Below are positions 41,970 through 50,800 of a DNA stretch of 62,857 nt, one piece after another. Source of the DNA: Clostridia bacterium. GTDB taxonomy: Bacteria > Bacillota > Clostridia > Oscillospirales > CAG-272. The stretch is taken from contig JAFSWB010000075.1 of NCBI GenBank assembly GCA_017444735.1, forward strand, positions 1 through 62,857, given 5' to 3'. Numbering within the stretch: the first letter of the stretch is position 1; each line of letters opens with the position of its first letter. Below the pieces are notes generated by a model. The model saw only the letters and a list, made by a program, of their open reading frames with translations. It ran no database searches and was not told the DNA's origin. Made by a program: the position numbers and the translations under genes.

Positions 41970-42869
41970 TCATTCAAGCGGGAAATCGTAACAGTCGTTT
42001 TTTTTCTCCACGATACCGAAGAGCCGCCATCGCGCCGCAGTTTCGGGAGAGAGATCCGCCGGCTCCTTCAGAAAATGACTGACTCCGATCCTGAGGACGG
42101 GCCCGTTGTCCCGGAGATACTGTACGTCCGTTATCTCATACCCCGTTATCCCGTCGCCGTATCGGGCTTCCGACTGCTCGGCGATAAAGGCGCTGATATC
42201 CGCCGCGGAGATATCCGCGATCAGATCCGCGGCGTCAGAGTCCTCGCCGCCTCCTCCGAACACGCAAAGGTTGATCTCTCCGTCGATCATCACGGTCACG
42301 GCGCACGTCGGACCGTATACCGTAAAGTCTTTCGCTTTGTATTCGCGCGCGAGGATGACGTCCCAGTGATATTCGTCCTCCGAGATCGCCTTGATTTCAA
42401 AATCGCGTATGAAATCGCCGTATTCCTCCGCCGCCCGGTCGTACGCAAGATTTATCGCATCCGCGCGGGTCAGCCGTTTTTCGGGGTTTTTCACCGCCTC
42501 CTCAAAGTTTTCGGTCATCGTTATTTTATCCGGGGACGTGAAAATGCGCGAGGCGAACGCGAAGGTCGTGAGGACGACCGCGACGGCGGCGGCGATCAGT
42601 GCGGCGAGCGCGATTTTTCTCCGCCCGGCGGGGGCGCGTCGGAATTCGCCTTTTTTCGCGGCCTCTTCGATCAGCGACCGCTTTAACCCGTCGGGACCGC
42701 GGTACCTCGCGTCGATCGACCGCAAAAGGCTCCCGCATTTTTCGGCAAAACCGGCGCGGCGGTCTTCGGCGCTTTTCGAAAGCTCGCGGCTGACGGCTCC
42801 GACCAGAAGGGCGCGCTCCGCCCGTTTGACCTTTTCTTCAAATTCAACGGCAACAGATGATCGGTTCAT
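41970..42869 (-). CDS. anti-sigma factor-like single-pass membrane protein
   Basis: ATGA overlap with the ECF sigma stop. One TM helix (IALAALIAAAVAVVLTTFAF) and an extracytoplasmic domain. Confidence 0.65.
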   Translation of the reverse strand: MNRSSVAVEFEEKVKRAERALLVGAVSRELSKSAEDRRAGFAEKCGSLLRSIDARYRGPDGLKRSLIEEAAKKGEFRRAPAGRRKIALAALIAAAVAVVLTTFAFASRIFTSPDKITMTENFEEAVKNPEKRLTRADAINLAYDRAAEEYGDFIRDFEIKAISEDEYHWDVILAREYKAKDFTVYGPTCAVTVMIDGEINLCVFGGGGEDSDAADLIADISAADISAFIAEQSEARYGDGITGYEITDVQYLRDNGPVLRIGVSHFLKEPADLSPETAARWRLFGIVEKKNDCYDFPLE

Positions 42870-43408
42870 CGATATTCCTCCTTGCATTTCTCTTTGATCT
42901 TTCGGCGCATACGGAACAGCCTCATTCTGACGCCGTTATACGAAAGGCCGGACGCCTTCATTATTTCGGCGTAGGTCATTTTTTTGCCGTAATAACGGTC
43001 GAAGAGGATCTTTTCTTCGTCGGTAAGCGATTCGACGACGCGGCGTTTCGCTTCTTCGACGGCGGCTTCGTCGGGGATCGCGTCGTCAACGCATATTTCC
43101 CCCGCGCTGAAAACCGGGTCCTCCGGATCGTCGGGATATATGAGGTGATCCTTATCCCGTTTTTGCGCCCGGACGTATTCGTAAAACTTCCGGCGCGCGA
43201 CTCCGAAGAGCCACCTGCCGACGTTTTCCTTTTCGATCCCGTTCCATTTTTTTATCAGGCAGAGAAAGGTCTCCTGCGTTATCTCCTCGGCGGCGTCGTA
43301 AACGTGACCTGTCAGAAACAGCGAAAAGGACCAAACGGCGTCGTAGTACTCTTCGACGGCGGCTTCAAGCTCACGCTCGTTCGCCGCGCCTTTTTCTCTC
43401 GGTTTCAT
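42866..43408 (-). CDS. ECF-type RNA polymerase sigma-70 family factor
   Basis: 180 aa with region 2 and region 4 (MTYAEIMKASGLSYNGVRMRLFRMRRKI). Confidence 0.88.
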   Translation of the reverse strand: MKPREKGAANERELEAAVEEYYDAVWSFSLFLTGHVYDAAEEITQETFLCLIKKWNGIEKENVGRWLFGVARRKFYEYVRAQKRDKDHLIYPDDPEDPVFSAGEICVDDAIPDEAAVEEAKRRVVESLTDEEKILFDRYYGKKMTYAEIMKASGLSYNGVRMRLFRMRRKIKEKCKEEYR

Positions 43409-44272: not shown

Positions 44273-44394
44273 GATATCAACTCCCAAACGTTTTTTCGGG
44301 ACGCTCCGCCTCGCTTCGCGTCCCGATAATATTCTAACACACGCCGGAAACGGGGGTCAATGGAAAACATTCCGAAAAACGGGCGTTCTCCGGC

Positions 44395-45444
44395 TTATCC
44401 GTTGTTCACATTTGCGCCGCGCGGGCAAAGGCGGTTTTCGTACAGCTTCCCCGTCGTGAACCGGTTGTAGGACCGGCATCCGCCCGCGCAGACGGAGCCG
44501 AACTCGCATCCGGCGCAGCCGCCGGAGAGCATTTTTTCGTCGAAACCCCTGTTATAGGAAAAGGCGGCGGGATCGCACCAGATATCGATGAGAGAACGCT
44601 CCCTGACGTTTCCCTCGTTGAACTCCGCGTCGTACATCGACTCGCACCCGCGCACGTTCCCGACGCTGTCGATCCCGAGCGTCGTGAGTCCCGCCGAGCA
44701 CCCTCTGAAGACGGCGCCGGGGACCCCGCGGATCGAGCCCTCCTCGGGACCGTAGTAGCCGATATTGTCGGCGACGCCGACGAAAAAGCGGTCTTTTCCC
44801 GCGATCCCGGCGACGAACCGCATGACGGCGCCGGCGTCGAAGGTGACGTCGATCCGCTCGCCCGCGGCGTTTCCCATCGGGGAGCACGCCTGGAGCTGCC
44901 ACGCAAAGATCGGCAAATCGCGCAGGACGCGGTAGAATTCGGGAAGGCGGGGCGCGTTGTCGGCGCGGAGCGCGGTGATGACCGACGTCGGGACGTTCGC
45001 GTCCGTCAGCGCTTTTATCGTCCCGAGCGCCGCGTCGAAGCTGCCGGGCGCGCGGTATCTGTCGTGGACCGCGGCGACGCCGTCGACGGAGACGGCGACC
45101 GACTCGACGTTTACGCGCTTCAGCGCGTCGATCAGCGCGGGCGTCATTTTATATCCGTTCGTTATTATACAGGCCCGGACCCCGCGCGAGGTGAGAGCGG
45201 AAACGACCGCCTCCCAGTCCTCTCTCATGAAGACCTCGCCGCCGATCACGGAGACGCGGCGGCAGCTCATTTCCGCGAGCTGACGCGCGACGGAGACGCA
45301 TTCCTCCGTCGTGAGCTCGTTTTCCCTCGCCGCGCCGCCGCGCGACCCGCAGTAGGCGCACCGGAAACAGCAAGCGAGGGTGATCTCCCAGACGCAGGAG
45401 TTGAGCCGGAAGGGGAACGAGCGGTATCTTTCGGCGTCAGTCAT
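44395..45444 (-). CDS. radical SAM / SPASM-domain enzyme without an N-terminal RRE domain
   Basis: 349 aa. CCFRCAYC (CX3CX2C) at residues 24-31. C-terminal Cys-rich SPASM-like GCAGCEFGSVCAGGC. 8-nt overlap with the upstream gene. Confidence 0.88.
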   Translation of the reverse strand: MTDAERYRSFPFRLNSCVWEITLACCFRCAYCGSRGGAARENELTTEECVSVARQLAEMSCRRVSVIGGEVFMREDWEAVVSALTSRGVRACIITNGYKMTPALIDALKRVNVESVAVSVDGVAAVHDRYRAPGSFDAALGTIKALTDANVPTSVITALRADNAPRLPEFYRVLRDLPIFAWQLQACSPMGNAAGERIDVTFDAGAVMRFVAGIAGKDRFFVGVADNIGYYGPEEGSIRGVPGAVFRGCSAGLTTLGIDSVGNVRGCESMYDAEFNEGNVRERSLIDIWCDPAAFSYNRGFDEKMLSGGCAGCEFGSVCAGGCRSYNRFTTGKLYENRLCPRGANVNNG

Positions 45445-45850
45445 CGCGAGGGACGGGCGCGCCGCACTCGTGACAGAATTTCGCGTTTTCCGAAAGCGGC
45501 GTCCCGCACGACAGGCACAGGCAGTATTTTCCCGAATCCGGTCTCGGGCGCTCGGGTGCGGGCCTGCCGGTCTCTTCCGGCGCCGGCGCTCCGGCGGGCT
45601 CGCGCGTTACGCCCGAGAAATAGTCGGGACCGGCGTAAACGCACATCATCATTTCAGGCGGCGGCCCCATCATATCGGGCCCCGCGTAAACGCACTCCAT
45701 CGGTCCGGGCGCGTCGGGAAGATCGTTATCCTCCTCCGCGGGGTCGGTCGGCGGGACGTCGGGGTCGGGACCGGCGTATACGTCCTCGACGACGCTGTCG
45801 TCCTTCTCAAACATCCTTGACCACGGGTATTTTTTCTTATTCTTACTCAT
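45437..45850 (-). CDS. 137-aa Pro/Asp-rich protein with three VYAGPD repeats and a C-terminal zinc ribbon
   Basis: DVYAGPD, CVYAGPD, CVYAGPD at aa 23-29, 53-59 and 70-76. CLSCG...FCHECG zinc ribbon. 8-nt overlaps on both sides. Confidence 0.7.
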   Translation of the reverse strand: MSKNKKKYPWSRMFEKDDSVVEDVYAGPDPDVPPTDPAEEDNDLPDAPGPMECVYAGPDMMGPPPEMMMCVYAGPDYFSGVTREPAGAPAPEETGRPAPERPRPDSGKYCLCLSCGTPLSENAKFCHECGAPVPRDD

Positions 45851-46610
45851 CCTGTCCGTCCTTTCCGGCGAGATATTCGCCCGCCGCGTATCTTTCGAGA
45901 AACCGTCCGACGGAATCGAGCGCGCCCTCGCCGCCGTACGGCATATCGTTTGTGCTCGCTGTTTTATAATCGTCCCCGAAACGGTATTTGACCGTCGTGA
46001 CGGAGCCGTCGAGGCACGTCCTGTCCTCTTCCTCGTCCCAGCGGTCGAGCTCGAGCTCGAAGATCACGCGGAAGCATTTTTCGGACGTCTCCGGCGGGAC
46101 GTGGTATTCGGTCACGGTCTCCTCGCCGTCCGCGCCCCCGTTTATGATGAGGAGCTTCTGATATTCGCCCGTCGCGGTGTAAAGGGCGGCCTCGTGATAG
46201 CTGTCGCAGCCGTCCGTTCCGACCGTCGCCGTATAGTAGTCGATCAAAAGGACGTCGGGGACGATCTCCGGGCGGTAAACCGACGTGTTTTCCGCCGTGT
46301 AGTCGACTTTTACGTCGTGCGCGGGCATCGGAAACGTGAAGATAAAGCCGTCCCCGTCGGAGTAGTCGGGATCGAACGGCTCGCCGTCGACGAAAAAGGA
46401 ATAATCCGTGTCGGTAGCCGTCAGCGGGAAATAAAACGTGACGGTCTCGCCCTCGCGGTACGAGGCCTTCGCGCCCGAAAAGCCGCTTTCCTTGCCCGAG
46501 AAGTCGAGCTTGTATTCGGGGGGCGTCTCTTTTCCGCAGGAAAACAGCAAAAGCGCCGAGCAGAGAAGCAAAAAAAGCGCCGCCGCTCCCGTCAGCTTGC
46601 GAATCGTCAT
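45843..46610 (-). CDS. lipoprotein of unknown function
   Basis: Start at MTIRKL behind AGAGGTGA. Lipobox LLFSC. No recognisable catalytic motif. Confidence 0.7.
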   Translation of the reverse strand: MTIRKLTGAAALFLLLCSALLLFSCGKETPPEYKLDFSGKESGFSGAKASYREGETVTFYFPLTATDTDYSFFVDGEPFDPDYSDGDGFIFTFPMPAHDVKVDYTAENTSVYRPEIVPDVLLIDYYTATVGTDGCDSYHEAALYTATGEYQKLLIINGGADGEETVTEYHVPPETSEKCFRVIFELELDRWDEEEDRTCLDGSVTTVKYRFGDDYKTASTNDMPYGGEGALDSVGRFLERYAAGEYLAGKDGQDE

Positions 46611-46633
46611 CCGATCACCTCTTTTCAACTTCA

Positions 46634-46662
46634 AATATACCATCCCCCGCCCGTGTTGTCAA
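46634..46662 (-). promoter_or_regulatory. promoter of the lipoprotein / VYAGPD / radical SAM operon
   Basis: Minus strand: TTGACA (46657-46662), 17-nt spacer, TATATT (46634-46639). Confidence 0.6.
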
Positions 46663-46750: not shown

Positions 46751-49700
46751 TCAATATTCGGTCACTCCGTCGAAGACGAGCTTCGTGTCGCCGGAGAGGG
46801 TGATCCCGTCGTCCCGGTAGTTGACGATGAGGTCGCCGCCCGTCACCTTGACGGTGACGTCCTCGCCCTTCGGGCAGAGGCCGTTTTCGACCGCCGCCGC
46901 GACGGCGGCGCACGCGCCGGTGCCGCAGGCGAACGTCTCGCCGTTGCCGCGCTCCCACACTCTCATCCGGAGGGTGGTGGGATCGACGACGCGGACGAAC
47001 TCCGTGTTGACGCGCTCCGGGAAGATCGGCGCGTTTTCGAACTTCGGTCCGATCGCGTCGAGGTCAAGATCGTCGACTCTTCCGCAGAAGACGACGCAGT
47101 GCGGATTGCCGACGGAGACGCAGGTGATCCTGTACTCGCCTCCCGCGAGCTTCACGGGCCGGTCGACGACCCTGTCGCCGCCGAGCGTACACGGGACCTT
47201 TTCGGGCTCGAATTCCGCCCTTCCCATTTCGACGCCCGCCATGGTGACCTTCCCGTCGGACGTGTAGACGGAGACGGAGCGGACGCCCGCGGCGGTCTCG
47301 ACGTTGACGACGTCGCGGCGGGCGATCCCGCGGTCGTAGACGTATTTCGCCACGGACCGGATGCCGGTCCCGGCGATGAAGCCCTCGCTCCCGTCGCGGT
47401 TGAATAGGCGCATGAAGATATCCGCGCCCTCGCTCCTCGGCTCCTCGATGAGCGCGATCCCGTACCCGCCGACGCCGTAGTGACGGTCGCAGAGCTTTAT
47501 GCAGAGCGATTCGGGACACGTTATCGTCCCGTCGCGGTTGTCGATCACGATATAGTCGGCTCCGGTCGCCTCCATCTTCGCGAACGAGAGCTTCATCCTT
47601 TCGCTTCTCATCGTGTTGATGTCGACGAGCTCGGTGTTGTACTCGGCGTACCTGCTCGCGATGATGTCGGCGAGCGCCTCCGCCGTGTCGAGCGACGTGA
47701 AGCACGGGACGGACGATCTGATCGCGGCGCGGTGGACGATGTCGAACGCCTTCACGTCGTCCGCGTCCTCGAGCGAGGAGAAGACGACGTAGTTTACCGT
47801 TCCCTCCTTCAGGAGAGACGGGAGAACGCCGTCCGCGCACGTGACGTCGACCGTCCTGACGTCGATCCCGAGCCGTCCGATCATCGCCGCCGTCGCCTCG
47901 GACGCCCAGACGGTGAATCTGAGATCGTGGAGCTTTTTGGCAAGGTCGATCAGCTCGTGAACGTCCTTTTCATCCGCGTGGAGGAAGATCCCGACGCCCT
48001 CGCGGCGAAGCGAGGACGGAACGAGCATCCCGGCGGAGCGCATTCCCTTGAAGAGCGCCTCGTTGAGATCCTTGCCGATGCCGAGGACCTCGCCCGTCGA
48101 CTTCATCTCGGGGCCGAGCCCGGAGAACGCCTCGGGGAGCTTTTCAAACGAGAACACGGGGACCTTGACGGCGAAGTACGGGGGCGTTTTGTAAAGACCC
48201 GTCCCGTATCCCATCGAGGCGAGCTTCTCCCCGACCATCACGCGGGTCGCGAGCTCGATCATCGGGACGCCGGTCACCTTGCTGATATACGGCACGGTGC
48301 GCGACGCGCGGGGATTGACCTCGATGACGTACGGCTCGCCGCGCCAGATAAGGAGCTGGACGTTGACGAGTCCGCGCGTGCCGAGCGCGAGGGAGCGCGC
48401 GGTCGCCTGCTCCGTCACGACGGCGGTCATTTTGTCGTTCAGCTTGAACGCCGGGATCACGGCGATCGAGTCGCCGCTGTGGACGCCCGCGCGTTCGACG
48501 TGCTCCATGATCCCGGGTATCAGGACGTCCTCGCCGTCGGAGATGACGTCGAGCTCGAGCTCGATCCCGTTCATGTATTTGTCGACGAGGACGGGGCTTT
48601 CGATCCCCGCCTCGAGGATAGGAGCCATATATTCCCTGACCTCGCGGTCGGAATAGACGATCCGCATATTCTGTCCGCCGATGACGTACGACGGACGGAG
48701 CAGGACCGGGTAACCGAGCTCCCGCGCCGCGGCGAGCGCCTCTTCCGTTCCCGTGACGCCCATCCCGCGCGGGCGCTTGATCCCGAGCGAGCCGAGAAGG
48801 GCGTCGAAACGCTCCCTGTCTTCCGCCGTGTCGATCCCCTCGGCGGACGTGCCGAGGATCTTCACGCCGCGGGAGTCGAGATATTTAGTCAGCTTTATCG
48901 CCGTCTGTCCGCCGAACGCCACGACGACGCCGATCGGCTCCTCGACCGCGACGACGTTCATCACGTCCTCCGGGGTCAGGGGCTCAAAGTAGAGGCGGTC
49001 GGCGGTGTCGTAATCGGTCGAGACCGTCTCGGGGTTGTTGTTGATTATCACGACGTCGTAACCGAGGCGGCGGAGCGTCCCGGCGCAGTGGACGGAGGAA
49101 TAATCGAATTCGATCCCCTGTCCGATCCGGATCGGCCCGGAGCCGAGGACGACGACGCACTTTCCGGGGCGGCGCGGAGCGAGCCGCGCCTCGCACTCGT
49201 CGTCGTACGACGAGTAGAAGTAGGGCGTCTCGGCGTCGAACTCGCCGCCGCAGGTGTCGACGATCTTGTAGACCGCCTCGCGGTGGTACGGTATCGGGTT
49301 CCCGGAGATCCGGTCGAGCGCGGCGTCCGGGAAGCCGAGCTTCTTGCCTTCAAGATACGTTTCGCCGTCGAGCTTTTTGCCCGCGATCCTGTTCTCAAAT
49401 TCGGAAAGGCGCGCGATCTCGGATATGAAGAAGCGGTCGATTTTCGTGACGTCGGCGATCTTCTCCTCCGGAACGCCGGCGCGGAGCGCGGCGAACACGG
49501 CGAAAAGACGTCTGTCGTCGCATTGCGAGACGGCGGCGAGAAGCTCCCCGGCGCTCTTTCCTTCAAAGGCGCGCATATCGAGCGTGTCGACGCCGATCTC
49601 CGCGCCGCGGACCGCCTTCATCAGCGCCGCGGGGAACGACGGAGCGATCGCCATGACCTCTCCGGTCGCCTTCATCTGCGTCCCGAGCGTGCGGGACGAG

Positions 49701-50800
49701 CCGTGGAGCTTGTCGAACGGCCATTTCGGGAGCTTGACGACGACGTAGTCGAGCGCGGGCTCGAAGCAGGCGCACGTCTTGCCCGTGACGTCGTTCTTTA
49801 TCTCGTCGAGCGTGTACCCGAGGGCGATCTTCGTCGTGATCTTCGCTATCGGGTATCCGGTCGCCTTGCTGGCGAGCGCGGAGGAACGCGAGACGCGCGG
49901 GTTGACCTCGATGACCGCGTAGTCGAACGACTCCGGGTCGAGGGCGAACTGACAGTTGCACCCGCCGACGATGCCGAGCGCCGTGATTATGTTGAGAGAC
50001 GCGCTGCGGAGCATCTGATATTCTCTGTCGGAGAGAGTGAGCGCGGGCGCGACGACGACCGAGTCGCCGGTATGGACGCCGACGGGGTCGACGTTCTCCA
50101 TCGAACAGACCGCGATCACGTTGCCGCGGCTGTCCCGCATCGTCTCAAACTCGATCTCCTTCCACCCGTAGATATACTTTTCGACGAGGATCTGTCCGAT
50201 CGGCGACGCCGAGATCCCGGACGCCGCGACGGAGGAAAGCTCCTCCGGCGTGCGGGCGACGCCGCCCCCGCCTCCGCCGAGCGTGTACGCGGGGCGGACG
50301 ATCACGGGGTAGCCGATCTTTTCGGCGACCTCAAGCGCGCGCGGGACGTCGTTCGCGATGTCGGACGGGATGACCGGCTCGCCGATCCGCTCCATCGTCT
50401 CCTTGAAGAGCTCCCTGTCCTCCGACTTCTTTATCGCGTCGACGTTCGACCCGATGAGGCGGACGCCGTTCTCTTCGAGAAACCCGTCCTCGGCGAGCTT
50501 GACGGCGAGGGTGAGTCCCGTCTGGCCGCCGAGTCCGGCGAGGAGGCAGTCGGGACGCTCTTTCTTTATTATTCTTTTTACCGTGTCGGCGGTCAGCGGT
50601 TCGAGGTAGACCTCGTCCGCGAGGTCGGTGTCCGTCATGACGGTCGCGGGGTTCGAGTTGACGAGGACCGTCTCGATCCCCTCCGCCTCGAGGACGCGGC
50701 ACGCCTGCGTGCCGGCGTAGTCGAATTCCGCCGCCTGACCGATCACGATGGGACCGGAGCCGATCACCATTACTTTCTTTATACCGTTATCTTTTGGCAT
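46751..50800 (-). CDS. carB: carbamoyl-phosphate synthase large subunit fused in frame to a C-terminal DapF-like (diaminopimelate epimerase fold) domain
   Basis: 1349 aa. The first 1068 aa are a full-length CarB (two ATP-grasp units plus an MGS-like domain). The last 281 aa (46751..47596) carry SVGNPH and ERGNGETFACGTGA DapF motifs. Confidence 0.9.
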   Translation of the reverse strand: MPKDNGIKKVMVIGSGPIVIGQAAEFDYAGTQACRVLEAEGIETVLVNSNPATVMTDTDLADEVYLEPLTADTVKRIIKKERPDCLLAGLGGQTGLTLAVKLAEDGFLEENGVRLIGSNVDAIKKSEDRELFKETMERIGEPVIPSDIANDVPRALEVAEKIGYPVIVRPAYTLGGGGGGVARTPEELSSVAASGISASPIGQILVEKYIYGWKEIEFETMRDSRGNVIAVCSMENVDPVGVHTGDSVVVAPALTLSDREYQMLRSASLNIITALGIVGGCNCQFALDPESFDYAVIEVNPRVSRSSALASKATGYPIAKITTKIALGYTLDEIKNDVTGKTCACFEPALDYVVVKLPKWPFDKLHGSSRTLGTQMKATGEVMAIAPSFPAALMKAVRGAEIGVDTLDMRAFEGKSAGELLAAVSQCDDRRLFAVFAALRAGVPEEKIADVTKIDRFFISEIARLSEFENRIAGKKLDGETYLEGKKLGFPDAALDRISGNPIPYHREAVYKIVDTCGGEFDAETPYFYSSYDDECEARLAPRRPGKCVVVLGSGPIRIGQGIEFDYSSVHCAGTLRRLGYDVVIINNNPETVSTDYDTADRLYFEPLTPEDVMNVVAVEEPIGVVVAFGGQTAIKLTKYLDSRGVKILGTSAEGIDTAEDRERFDALLGSLGIKRPRGMGVTGTEEALAAARELGYPVLLRPSYVIGGQNMRIVYSDREVREYMAPILEAGIESPVLVDKYMNGIELELDVISDGEDVLIPGIMEHVERAGVHSGDSIAVIPAFKLNDKMTAVVTEQATARSLALGTRGLVNVQLLIWRGEPYVIEVNPRASRTVPYISKVTGVPMIELATRVMVGEKLASMGYGTGLYKTPPYFAVKVPVFSFEKLPEAFSGLGPEMKSTGEVLGIGKDLNEALFKGMRSAGMLVPSSLRREGVGIFLHADEKDVHELIDLAKKLHDLRFTVWASEATAAMIGRLGIDVRTVDVTCADGVLPSLLKEGTVNYVVFSSLEDADDVKAFDIVHRAAIRSSVPCFTSLDTAEALADIIASRYAEYNTELVDINTMRSERMKLSFAKMEATGADYIVIDNRDGTITCPESLCIKLCDRHYGVGGYGIALIEEPRSEGADIFMRLFNRDGSEGFIAGTGIRSVAKYVYDRGIARRDVVNVETAAGVRSVSVYTSDGKVTMAGVEMGRAEFEPEKVPCTLGGDRVVDRPVKLAGGEYRITCVSVGNPHCVVFCGRVDDLDLDAIGPKFENAPIFPERVNTEFVRVVDPTTLRMRVWERGNGETFACGTGACAAVAAAVENGLCPKGEDVTVKVTGGDLIVNYRDDGITLSGDTKLVFDGVTEY

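What the first reader, a model, noticed from the sequence alone, without database searches (positions are those of the whole stretch)
44395..46662. Self-contained operon: lipoprotein, VYAGPD-repeat/zinc-ribbon protein, radical SAM/SPASM enzyme
Three minus-strand genes sit behind their own TTGACA-17-TATATT promoter. They are chained by two 8-nt start/stop overlaps (ATGAGTAA at 45843-45850 and ATGACTGA at 45437-45444), which implies stoichiometric co-translation. The last gene is a radical SAM enzyme with CX3CX2C plus a Cys-rich SPASM-type C-terminus. That class typically installs thioether or C-C crosslinks on peptides or proteins. The gene immediately upstream is a small, non-enzymatic, repeat-bearing protein, which is the layout of a substrate/maturase pair. 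It differs from textbook RiPP loci in four ways:
- The candidate substrate is 137 aa and ends in a zinc ribbon.
- The enzyme has no N-terminal RRE/PqqD-like domain (its cluster motif starts at residue 24).
- No protease or exporter gene is present.
- A lipoprotein is co-encoded.
I do not recognise this combination as a described system.
Basis: partly seen in the sequence, partly recalled or inferred. Interest (0 to 1): 0.78.

Follow-up and report, generated by a model that had tools for sequence, protein, structure and literature searches.

The report
Splicease-like radical SAM enzyme with repeat-protein substrate
Rumen Clostridia carry a conserved, undescribed gene pair: a radical SAM enzyme whose closest characterised relative cuts tyramine out of peptide backbones, and a small disordered protein with repeated V-Y-A-G-P motifs that is almost certainly its substrate.

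Summary
The three minus-strand genes, both 8-nt overlaps, the promoter-like site and a terminator-like hairpin are all present as described.

Only two of the genes form a conserved unit.
- **From the enzyme side:** in 78 of 78 related loci with upstream DNA, the radical SAM/SPASM gene follows a small acidic, disordered protein. That protein has a basic K-K-Y-P-W N-terminus, 1-11 V-Y-A-G-P repeats and usually a C-terminal zinc ribbon.
- **From the small-protein side:** 9 of 9 contexts carry the family enzyme directly downstream.
- **The lipoprotein:** it appears in only 7 of 86 neighbourhoods, all with the same local gene order, so it is a lineage-specific neighbour.
- **Other partners:** no protease, exporter or other gene is conserved.

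The enzyme passes no NCBIfam cutoff. Its nearest family is TIGR04103, which I showed contains PlpX, the tyramine splicease. The two enzymes are 36% identical over 334 residues, and 83 of 149 family-conserved positions are identical in PlpX.

The repeat Tyr is never Phe or Trp. A nearby Cys is present in only 16% of repeats, which argues against thioether chemistry.

Best reading: a binary, splicease-like protein-modification system acting at a new, non-XYG motif. The exact chemistry is unproven. The pair occurs in at least 285 species genomes, and the 80 listed are all uncultured MAGs, mostly ruminant. I found no description of it in the papers and libraries searched. I rate it a new variant of a known kind, moderately to highly interesting.

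The parts
46634..46662 (-). Sigma-70-type promoter-like site, TTGACA-17-TATATT, with TG before the -10
   Evidence: 11 of 12 consensus positions; sequence verified. This is a consensus match only, with no expression data.
45843..46610 (-). Lipoprotein-like gene, 255 aa from ATG 46610 (the longest ORF starts at 46643). It has a signal peptide and an LFSC lipobox. It is a lineage-specific neighbour, not a conserved member of the module.
   Evidence: No Pfam, NCBIfam, PADLOC or PDB match. Homologs occur in only 7 of 86 neighbourhoods.
45437..45850 (-). Candidate substrate protein, 137 aa. It is acidic and disordered, with three V-Y-A-G-P repeats and a C-terminal zinc ribbon.
   Evidence: Family members lie upstream of the enzyme in 78 of 78 loci.
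45821..45838 (-). Conserved basic N-terminal motif K-K-Y-P-W (residues 5-10). It may be a leader or recognition helix.
   Evidence: Y8, P9 and W10 are at least 90% conserved. AF2 predicts a short helix at residues 9-12. An N-terminal [YF]P motif is present in 66 of 77 relatives.
45767..45781 (-). Repeat 1, V24-Y25-A26-G27-P28
45677..45691 (-). Repeat 2, V54-Y55-A56-G57-P58
45626..45640 (-). Repeat 3, V71-Y72-A73-G74-P75. This is the best-conserved last repeat, MMCVYAGPDYF.
45452..45523 (-). C-terminal zinc ribbon (C112-x2-C115 ... C126-x2-C129)
   Evidence: PF13240, 5.8e-8. pLDDT above 90. Present in 69 of 77 relatives.
44395..45444 (-). Radical SAM/SPASM enzyme, 349 aa, splicease-like, with no RRE
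45349..45372 (-). Radical SAM cluster motif C25-x3-C29-x2-C32, with family-specific C26
44425..44700 (-). SPASM region with seven invariant Cys (C249, C267, C310, C313, C319, C323, C340)
44372..44393 (-). Terminator-like hairpin followed by a T run, directly after the enzyme's stop codon

Best explanation
The functional unit is a two-gene module.

**Shown.**
- The 349-aa radical SAM/SPASM enzyme is always encoded directly after a small protein. In 69 of 77 related loci that ORF ends within -40 to +25 nt of the enzyme match, and in 21 it overlaps it.
- That protein is acidic and intrinsically disordered. It carries 1-11 V-Y-A-G-P repeats, a basic K-K-Y-P-W N-terminus and usually a zinc ribbon.
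- The enzyme's closest characterised relative is the tyramine splicease PlpX.

**Inferred.**
- The enzyme reductively cleaves SAM at the C25/C29/C32 cluster. The resulting 5'-deoxyadenosyl radical attacks the Tyr-centred V-Y-A-G-P motifs of the neighbouring protein (Y25, Y55 and Y72 here).
- Recognition is by the motif itself, possibly helped by the N-terminal K-K-Y-P-W segment. That segment would play the role of the leader helix in binary (type II) splicease systems.
- The most likely chemistry, by homology, is splicease-type excision of a tyramine equivalent. [quoted passage not shown] The predicted mass change is about -135.07 Da per site, or about -405 Da for three sites.
- There is no signal peptide, protease or exporter. 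The modified protein is therefore probably the end product and stays inside the cell.
- In this genome the pair is co-transcribed with a lineage-specific lipoprotein gene from its own promoter.

**My probabilities.** Enzyme-substrate pair, about 0.8. Tyr-centred modification, about 0.65. Tyramine splicing specifically, about 0.35-0.4.
For: **Pairing.**
- The small protein is followed directly by the family enzyme in 9 of 9 contexts.
- From the enzyme side, 77 of 80 species-level loci have an upstream ORF within 300 nt. Of these, 73 carry two or more motifs in the adjacent ORF, against 0 of 2335 background ORFs.
- The remaining loci carry divergent members or a single-repeat member. L022 has a minimal 53-aa protein.
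- 69 of 77 upstream ORFs end within -40 to +25 nt of the enzyme match.
- Clustering all neighbourhood ORFs leaves only these two genes conserved.

**Substrate-like features.**
- The logo from 312 repeats gives V 91%, Y 100%, A 92%, G 87%, P 100%.
- At V-x-A-G-P, x is Tyr in 242 cases, His in 1, and never Phe or Trp.
- Repeat number varies from 1 to 11.
- The protein is disordered apart from the zinc ribbon.

**Enzyme relationship.**
- The best NCBIfam models are TIGR04103 (243 bits) and TIGR03913 (223 bits). The next best scores 128 bits or less.
- The radical SAM gene next to PlpA3 in Pleurocapsa PCC 7319 is PlpX. It scores 824 bits on TIGR04103, above the cutoff of 725.
- The window enzyme aligns to PlpX at 36% identity over 334 aa, E = 4e-66.
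- 83 of 149 family-conserved positions are identical in PlpX. These include AWQxQ..PMGNA and NIGYYxPxExxxRG. SkfB does not keep the AWQxQ..PMGNA motif, and its alignment stops before the region holding NIGYY.

**Published splicease behaviour.**
- Spliceases excise tyramine at X-Y-G motifs.
- PlpX does not need the leader and can modify short tags placed in proteins.
- Binary type II systems lack the Y protein and are predicted to use a leader helix instead (PMC11414181; PMC11626197; PMC11002830).
Against: - The motif is V-Y-A-G, not X-Y-G. Gly follows Tyr in only about 3% of repeats.
- The enzyme scores far below the TIGR04103 cutoff (243 against 725 bits) and is only 36% identical to PlpX, so the chemistry could differ.
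- Four Cys are invariant in this family and absent from PlpX: C26, C49, C61 and C187. This hints at a mechanistic difference.
- Val, Ala, Gly and Pro are nearly invariant, which differs from the variable X of spliceotides.
- I have no biochemical data. I could not run an enzyme-substrate complex prediction.
- The biological role of the product is unknown.
Confidence: 0.45

Rival explanations
1. Same enzyme-substrate pair, but a different radical chemistry at the V-Y-A-G-P motif. Options:
- a Tyr-based C-C or C-O crosslink to a neighbouring residue (cyclophane-type, -2 Da);
- Val to cyclopropylglycine, as in the poly-CPG systems (-2 Da);
- L-to-D epimerisation, with the family-specific Cys187 as hydrogen-atom donor (0 Da).
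For: - 36% identity to PlpX leaves room for a change of function.
- The motif is not X-Y-G.
- Four invariant Cys (C26, C49, C61, C187) are absent from PlpX. From general knowledge, radical SAM epimerases use a Cys as hydrogen donor; the EpeE C223A structures appear among the fold matches.
- RS-SPASM enzymes that turn Val into cyclopropylglycine exist (PMC10878394 and PMC9062424 abstracts).
- Val at -1 is 91% conserved.
Against: - No other characterised family scores close to the splicease models: 128 bits or less, against 243 and 223.
- No crosslink partner with a reactive side chain is conserved next to Tyr. The neighbours are Ala, Gly and Pro.
- Val is replaced by Ala, Thr, Leu, Ile or Gly in some repeats, while Tyr is never replaced by another aromatic residue. 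This points to Tyr rather than Val.
Confidence: 0.35
2. The small protein is a partner of the enzyme rather than its substrate. It could be a rubredoxin-like 4-Cys electron donor, a scaffold or a regulator. The radical SAM enzyme would then act on a different protein or a small molecule.
For: - A 4-Cys ribbon could in principle bind Fe.
- The family's third-to-fifth-ranking NCBIfam matches include non-peptide enzymes such as AhbD, at about 120 bits.
- No product has been observed.
Against: - The zinc ribbon is missing in 8 of 77 relatives and in the minimal 53-aa member. The repeats are universal.
- A repeat number of 1-11 with an invariant Tyr is what a multi-site substrate looks like.
- The closest enzyme families are peptide maturases.
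- No other conserved neighbour could serve as substrate or pathway partner.
Confidence: 0.1
3. The lipoprotein would be a functional member, for example as receptor, carrier or export partner of the modified protein. The enzyme would install thioether links from the Cys that precedes two of the repeats.
For: - In this window the three genes share a promoter-like site and 8-nt overlaps.
- Two of the three repeats here are preceded by Cys.
- An NCBIfam model named rSAM_w_lipo (TIGR04133) exists.
Against: - Lipoprotein homologs occur in only 7 of 86 neighbourhoods, all with the same local gene order. Elsewhere the upstream neighbour is unrelated.
- The enzyme scores 128 bits on TIGR04133, against a cutoff of 425.
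- Cys at -2 is present in only 16% of repeats.
- The repeat protein has no signal peptide or hydrophobic segment.
Confidence: 0.05

Closest known systems
Spliceotide systems: the tyramine splicease PlpX (TIGR04103 / IPR026482) with PlpA precursors, and binary type II systems such as RhaX/RhaA
   Same: - Closest characterised homolog: 36% identity over 334 aa, with 83 of 149 family-conserved positions shared.
- Both are radical SAM plus SPASM enzymes with no fused RRE.
- Both have an essential Tyr in a short motif, and substrates can carry several sites.
- PlpX recognises the motif without the leader and can modify proteins.
- Type II systems are binary, without a Y protein.
   Different: - The score is far below the family cutoff (243 against 725 bits).
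- The motif is V-Y-A-G-P, not X-Y-G.
- The substrate is a disordered, repeat-bearing zinc-ribbon protein with no Nif11 or NHLP leader.
- The hosts are anaerobic rumen Clostridia rather than cyanobacteria or proteobacteria.
- No protease or exporter is present.
- Four invariant Cys are absent from PlpX.
- The chemistry is untested.
TIGR03913, GDL motif peptide-associated radical SAM/SPASM maturase
   Same: It is the second-best profile (223 bits over residues 16-340). It belongs to the same superclade as PlpX, which scores 395 bits on it.
   Different: The score is below the cutoff of 592 bits. The profile is 477 positions long against 349 aa here. No GDL-motif peptide is present. I do not know the chemistry of that family.
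Anaerobic sulfatase-maturating enzyme (anSME)
   Same: It is a compact radical SAM/SPASM enzyme of about 370 aa without an RRE. It recognises a short motif inside a full-length protein rather than a leader (general knowledge). It is a fold neighbour, with TM about 0.65.
   Different: The score is 55.6 bits against a cutoff of 349. The substrate here has no conserved (C/S)-x-P-x-R motif and no sulfatase.
Repeat-motif RiPP precursors modified by RS-SPASM enzymes (poly-cyclopropylglycine systems, TvgB and TigE)
   Same: Both have a precursor with several short repeats containing Val, each repeat being a site for one RS-SPASM enzyme (PMC9062424 and PMC10878394 abstracts). The repeat detail is from memory.
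   Different: No such family appears among the 25 NCBIfam matches listed for the enzyme (of 74 with E up to 0.01). Here Tyr, not Val, is the strictly invariant residue.

Membership tests
Spliceotide / tyramine splicease system | The enzyme belongs to the PlpX family (TIGR04103 equivalog, cutoff 725 bits) | tested here: not met
   The window enzyme scores 242.6 bits; PlpX itself scores 824 bits. It is the nearest family, but this enzyme lies outside it.
Spliceotide / tyramine splicease system | The substrate carries X-Y-G splice motifs | tested here: not met
   The motif is V-Y-A-G-P. The residue after Tyr is Ala in 92% of repeats and Gly in about 3%. The window protein has no YG dipeptide.
Spliceotide / tyramine splicease system | An essential Tyr in the modified motif | tested here: met
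   At V-x-A-G-P, x is Tyr in 242 cases, His in 1, and never Phe or Trp.
Spliceotide / tyramine splicease system | [quoted passage not shown] | not testable with these tools
   This needs co-expression and mass spectrometry. The mass value comes from PMC11626197.
Spliceotide / tyramine splicease system | A binary architecture (type II) without a Y protein, using a leader helix instead | tested here: inconclusive
   No ORF of 70 aa or more other than the pair is conserved next to the enzyme; shorter PlpY-sized ORFs (PlpY is 56 aa) were not screened. A conserved N-terminal K-K-Y-P-W segment has a predicted short helix at residues 9-12. Binding to the enzyme could not be modelled.
Canonical RiPP gene cluster | A leader/core precursor together with a leader peptidase, an exporter or both | tested here: not met
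   No protease or transporter is conserved across 86 neighbourhoods, and none lies next to the genes in the window.
TIGR04133 rSAM_w_lipo (radical SAM/SPASM enzyme paired with a lipoprotein) | The enzyme scores above the cutoff of 425 bits and is consistently paired with a lipoprotein | tested here: not met
   The enzyme scores 128 bits. A lipoprotein homolog is present in only 7 of 86 neighbourhoods.
Sactipeptide / ranthipeptide maturases | A conserved donor Cys in the substrate motif | tested here: not met
   Cys at -2 is present in 16% of repeats, and in 30% of last repeats. StsB scores 117 bits against a cutoff of 625, and SkfB 67 against 300.
anSME, heme (AhbD/NirJ), PQQ (PqqE) and mycofactocin (MftC) enzymes | A score above the curated cutoff of the corresponding NCBIfam model | tested here: not met
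   Scores against cutoffs: anSME 55.6/349, AhbD 121.7/500, NirJ 107/515, PqqE 83/381, MftC 115.8/265.

The most novel reading that the evidence does not exclude
Rumen and gut Clostridia widely encode an intracellular, intrinsically disordered zinc-ribbon protein. Its V-Y-A-G-P repeats would each be converted by a dedicated splicease-like radical SAM enzyme into a backbone ketoamide (beta-amino acid) or into another Tyr-centred modification not seen before. If so, this would be the first splicease-type chemistry at a non-X-Y-G motif. It would also be a non-secreted, multi-site modified protein with no tailoring or export genes, rather than a natural-product peptide.
Probability: 0.3. Interest if true: 0.78.

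Novelty: new variant of a known kind. Interest (0 to 1): 0.62.

Why it matters
If the enzyme modifies the V-Y-A-G-P repeats, three things follow.
- **A large uncharacterised family.** At least 285 species-level genomes encode the enzyme, and the 80 listed are all uncultured MAGs, mostly ruminant. Many hundreds of protein clusters carry the repeat protein. All would bear an unknown post-translational modification on an abundant-looking, non-secreted protein.
- **A wider splicease clade.** The clade would extend to a new recognition motif, and this motif would be missed by genome mining that counts YG motifs (PMC10849128).
- **A possible tool.** A short, repeatable, leader-independent tag of five to eight residues could be useful for placing ketoamide or beta-amino-acid sites, or another radical modification, in proteins.

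It would also raise a biological question. What does a multi-ketoamide disordered protein do inside an anaerobe? It could inhibit proteases, act as a covalent trap or serve as a scaffold.

Tried and rejected
1. **Membership in a characterised radical SAM/SPASM family.** All 25 NCBIfam matches listed (the best of 74) are far below their cutoffs.
2. **TIGR04133 "rSAM_w_lipo" as an explanation for the lipoprotein.** The enzyme scores 128 bits against a cutoff of 425, and the lipoprotein is not conserved.
3. **Thioether chemistry.** Cys is not conserved in the repeats.
4. **Anti-phage defence system.** PADLOC gives only generic viperin-level radical SAM similarity, about 50 bits. The other two proteins have no hits.
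5. **Literature searches.** I searched VYAGP, YAGPE and YAGPD, the TIGR accessions, rumen radical SAM repeat precursors, and zinc-ribbon precursors. Nothing relevant turned up.
6. **Scott et al. 2022 (Chem 8:2659).** This paper classifies splicease types. It is not held in the library. I therefore could not check whether this clade appears in their networks.
7. **Fold search of the enzyme model.** It returns only generic radical SAM/SPASM neighbours: PqqE, SkfB, SuiB, BlsE, CteB and anSME. It does not distinguish chemistries.
8. **Profile search with the small-protein alignment.** Counts are inflated by unrelated proteins with many zinc ribbons. 67 of the 139 newly fetched hits among the best 150 are of that kind, so the totals cannot be used as a family size.
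9. **A second Nif11 precursor context (P0202).** It had no adjacent radical SAM gene and added nothing.
10. **Lipoprotein function.** There is no Pfam, NCBIfam, PADLOC or PDB sequence match.
11. **Enzyme-substrate complex modelling.** This is not possible with the tools available, which predict monomers only and refuse fused sequences.
Full report

Yes. The window holds three consecutive minus-strand ORFs:
- 45843-46643, lipoprotein-like.
- 45437-45850, 137 aa.
- 44395-45444, 349 aa.

The junctions read ATGAGTAA (45843-45850) and ATGACTGA (45437-45444), so each start codon overlaps the previous stop.

TTGACA-17-TATATT lies at 46662-46634. It matches 11 of 12 consensus positions and has TG before the -10. 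A terminator-like hairpin lies at 44393-44372, right after the last stop codon. A second promoter-like site then serves the downstream transaldolase-family gene. These are consensus matches, not expression data.

Two corrections apply.
- The ATG at 46643 sits inside the promoter spacer. The likely lipoprotein start is ATG 46610, behind AAGAGGTGA. This gives 255 aa beginning MTIRKLTGAAALFLLLCSALLLFSC, with a signal peptide and a lipobox.
- The radical SAM motif is C25-x3-C29-x2-C32, not a motif starting at residue 24.

The N-terminus K-K-Y-P-W of the 137-aa protein is conserved in homologs. This supports the long start over the 125-aa version found in public gene calls.

**2. What are the three proteins?**

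*The enzyme.*
- It has Radical_SAM (9e-23) and SPASM (3e-7) domains.
- Seven SPASM Cys are invariant.
- The AlphaFold model is confident (pLDDT 88, pTM 0.89). The barrel starts at residue 16, so there is no N-terminal RRE.
- Fold neighbours are the usual radical SAM/SPASM maturases: PqqE, SkfB, SuiB, BlsE, CteB and anSME.

*The 137-aa protein.*
- It is acidic, with pI 4.3, and has no hydrophobic segment.
- It is predicted disordered over residues 1-108, apart from a four-residue helix at 9-12. It ends in a confident zinc ribbon.
- It carries three V-Y-A-G-P-D repeats, with Tyr at 25, 55 and 72.

*The lipoprotein.* It matches nothing in Pfam, NCBIfam, PADLOC or PDB sequences.

**3. Which genes belong together?**

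*From the small-protein side.* 28 homologs were found. In 9 of 9 genomic contexts the gene is followed directly by a family radical SAM/SPASM gene. Two of these contexts are cut by contig ends, but their partial ORFs translate to the family N-terminus. The wider neighbourhoods are unrelated to each other. They include DUF2500 and GH94, dockerin and GT2, a relaxase and recombinase, and CBAH.

*From the enzyme side.*
- A scan of one genome per species found 285 genomes that encode a relative. The best 80 are 59-74% identical. All 80 are uncultured MAGs, and most record titles name a ruminant source (goat, sheep, buffalo, yak, reindeer).
- 77 of these loci have an upstream ORF within 300 nt. In 73 of them that ORF has two or more motif copies. 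None of 2335 background ORFs of at least 100 aa does.
- The remaining loci carry divergent copies. L022 carries a minimal 53-aa member, MFFKKKYPFN...DVYNGP. That makes 78 of 78.
- 69 of 77 upstream ORFs end within -40 to +25 nt of the enzyme match.

*Other neighbours.* I clustered all ORFs of at least 70 aa in 86 neighbourhoods by all-against-all BLAST.
- Only the enzyme (84 loci) and the repeat protein (67 loci by BLAST; the rest are too divergent or low in complexity) are widely conserved.
- Lipoprotein homologs occur in 7 neighbourhoods. CarB-DapF and transaldolase-family neighbours each occur in 6, which points to the same local gene order.
- Elsewhere the upstream gene looks like RNase H, KsgA or MsrA by sequence motif, is something else, or is absent.
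- No protease or exporter is conserved.

The conserved unit therefore has two genes. The lipoprotein is a lineage-specific neighbour that happens to be co-transcribed here.

**4. Anatomy of the repeat protein family**

The family has these features.
- Length runs from 53 to 369 aa, with a median of 178.
- Repeat number runs from 1 to 11.
- Median pI is 4.7, and no member has a transmembrane-like segment.
- A zinc ribbon is present in 69 of 77 members and an N-terminal [YF]-P motif in 66 of 77.

A logo built from 312 repeats gives the following:

| Position | Residues |
|---|---|
| -4 | hydrophobic (Met or Phe) |
| -1 | Val 91% |
| 0 | Tyr 100% |
| +1 | Ala 92% |
| +2 | Gly 87% |
| +3 | Pro 100% |
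| +4 | Glu 47% |
| +5 | Tyr 27% or Phe 21% |
| +6 | Phe 41% |

With the Tyr position left free, V-x-A-G-P has Tyr in 242 cases, His in 1, and never Phe or Trp. This implies that the phenol itself matters.

Cys at -2 occurs in only 16% of repeats. A conserved Cys-based thioether is therefore unlikely.

Some members are permuted, with an N-terminal ribbon and C-terminal V-Y-A-A-P-P repeats (L070, L076). Others lack the ribbon (L058, L073, L078). The repeats are thus the universal element.

A profile search of 1.84 billion representative proteins returned many further members. 72 of the 139 newly fetched hits among the best 150 are true members. The totals are inflated by unrelated proteins with several zinc ribbons.

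**5. What is the enzyme related to?**

All 25 NCBIfam matches listed (the best of 74) are far below their curated cutoffs:

| Model | Score (bits) | Cutoff (bits) |
|---|---|---|
| TIGR04103 "nif11-class peptide radical SAM maturase 3" | 243 | 725 |
| TIGR03913 "GDL motif peptide-associated maturase" | 223 | 592 |
| TIGR04133 | 128 | 425 |
| AhbD | 122 | 500 |
| MftC | 116 | 265 |
| PqqE | 83 | 381 |
| anSME | 56 | 349 |

To identify TIGR04103, I followed these steps.
1. I took the published PlpA3 precursor sequence (PMC10533398 supplement).
2. I found its exact match in Pleurocapsa sp. PCC 7319.
3. I fetched the locus.
4. I scanned the adjacent 419-aa radical SAM gene. It is followed by a 56-aa ORF, as expected for PlpX and PlpY. 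It scores 824 bits on TIGR04103.

A review independently places PlpX in an uncharacterised SPASM subclass, IPR026482 (PMC11002830).

The window enzyme aligns to PlpX over 334 residues at 36% identity, E = 4e-66. Of 149 positions that are at least 95% conserved in the Clostridia family, 83 are identical in PlpX. These include motifs outside the Fe-S ligands: VWEITL, IGGExFMRxDW, HDxxR, AWQxQ..PMGNA and NIGYYxPxExxxRG. SkfB, the best PDB sequence match, does not keep AWQxQ..PMGNA, and its alignment stops before the region holding NIGYY.

The family also differs from PlpX. Four invariant Cys (C26, C49, C61, C187) are absent from PlpX, and the C-terminal extension of about 70 aa is missing.

**6. 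How it most likely works**

Published work gives four relevant facts about spliceases.
- PlpX acts independently of the leader and can modify short tags inside proteins.
- Type II systems are binary and use a leader helix where type I systems use the Y protein.
- Several spliceotides inhibit proteases.

These come from PMC11414181, PMC11626197 and PMC10849128.

This fits the present anatomy well. The system is binary. It has an invariant Tyr flanked by small residues, many sites per substrate, and a short conserved N-terminal segment with helical propensity.

My best explanation is as follows. The enzyme is translated in coupling with its substrate. It generates a 5'-deoxyadenosyl radical and modifies each V-Y-A-G-P repeat at or around Tyr. 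The most probable outcome is splicease-type tyramine excision. With no signal peptide, protease or exporter, the modified protein itself is probably the cytoplasmic end product.

- **Shown:** the pairing, the motif conservation and the homology.
- **Inferred:** substrate status (about 0.8), Tyr-centred chemistry (about 0.65) and splicing itself (about 0.35-0.4).

The main caveats are these:
- The motif is Y-A-G rather than Y-G. Gly follows Tyr in only about 3% of repeats.
- The homology is distant.
- The extra invariant Cys could point elsewhere. C187 lies just after strand 6 of the model, and it could be a hydrogen-atom donor for epimerisation.

**7. Rivals**

- **(a) Other radical chemistry on the same substrate (0.35).** Options are a Tyr crosslink, Val to cyclopropylglycine, or epimerisation.
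- **(b) The small protein is a partner or electron donor rather than a substrate (0.1).** Against this, the ribbon is dispensable while the repeats are universal.
The comparative data contradict it.

**8. Novelty and verdict**

The motif does not appear in any relevant paper in the searchable literature. No Pfam or NCBIfam model covers the repeat region. The source names that were shown for these enzymes say only "radical SAM protein" or "radical SAM protein with 4Fe4S-binding SPASM domain".

Published splicease mining counted YG motifs next to SPASM enzymes in reference proteomes. That approach would miss a Y-A-G family known only from uncultured MAGs. I could not read the primary paper to confirm this.

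I classify the finding as a new variant of a known kind: a radical SAM/SPASM maturase with a ribosomal substrate, in the splicease superclade. It is not a member of the spliceotide family as currently defined, because two defining features were tested and not met.

- Interest: 0.62.
- Most novel reading not excluded: a widespread intracellular multi-ketoamide (or otherwise newly modified) disordered protein in rumen Clostridia. Probability about 0.3; interest if true about 0.78.

Noticed in passing
window 46751-50800 (-); also L002:1062-5111 and L003:1061-5110: The gene directly upstream encodes a 1349-aa fusion. It joins the carbamoyl-phosphate synthase large subunit to a C-terminal diaminopimelate epimerase (DapF) domain (PF01678, 2.4e-52). 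The fusion is conserved in six related loci. It links an arginine and pyrimidine pathway enzyme to a lysine and peptidoglycan pathway enzyme, which is unusual.
   Followed up: partly
window 46608-46643 (-): The longest lipoprotein ORF starts at ATG 46643, which lies inside the -35/-10 spacer of the promoter-like site. ATG 46610 has a strong Shine-Dalgarno sequence (AAGAGGTGA) and is the more likely start, giving 255 aa.
   Followed up: yes
window enzyme residues C26, C49, C61 and C187 (within 44395-45444, -): Four Cys are invariant across 60 family enzymes and absent from the splicease PlpX. C187 sits in the shared AWQxQACSPMGNA motif. They could bind an extra metal site or donate a hydrogen atom. 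Their role is unexplained.
   Followed up: partly
L070:2950-3240, L076:4699-4989, L078:1747-2376: These are permuted or divergent substrate architectures. In L070 and L076 the zinc ribbon is N-terminal and V-Y-A-A/P-P repeats are C-terminal. L078 has no ribbon and carries a near-perfect tandem array, APVYAAPPPDEPRT.
   Followed up: no
L022, about 2520-2690, directly upstream of the enzyme at 2696: A minimal 53-aa family member: MFFKKKYPFN...DVYNGP plus an acidic tail. It has one repeat and no zinc ribbon. This suggests that the N-terminal motif plus a single Tyr motif is the essential core.
   Followed up: partly
L055-L062 and L068 (upstream ORFs); L080, L082, L084: In about eight loci the gene directly upstream of the pair looks like RNase H, with gaps of about 1 nt in several. 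In three loci it looks like KsgA/RsmA. I assigned these names from sequence motifs and did not test them. The pair seems to insert next to varied housekeeping genes.
   Followed up: no
L088:309-3700: In one genome the pair lies next to a mobilisable element (MobC, relaxase, serine recombinase, transposase). The otherwise identical locus L089 lacks this element.
   Followed up: no
window 41970-43408 (-): Downstream of the transaldolase-family gene is an ECF-type sigma factor (Sigma70_r2, 180 aa). It overlaps a 305-aa protein with one hydrophobic segment, which is likely an anti-sigma factor. This pair is not linked to the module in other loci.
   Followed up: partly
one search hits such as P0204 (1317 aa, 19 matched stretches) and P0205 (1297 aa): The profile search pulled in very long proteins built from 10-19 zinc-ribbon units. 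They are unrelated to the repeat family but are striking in their own right.
   Followed up: no
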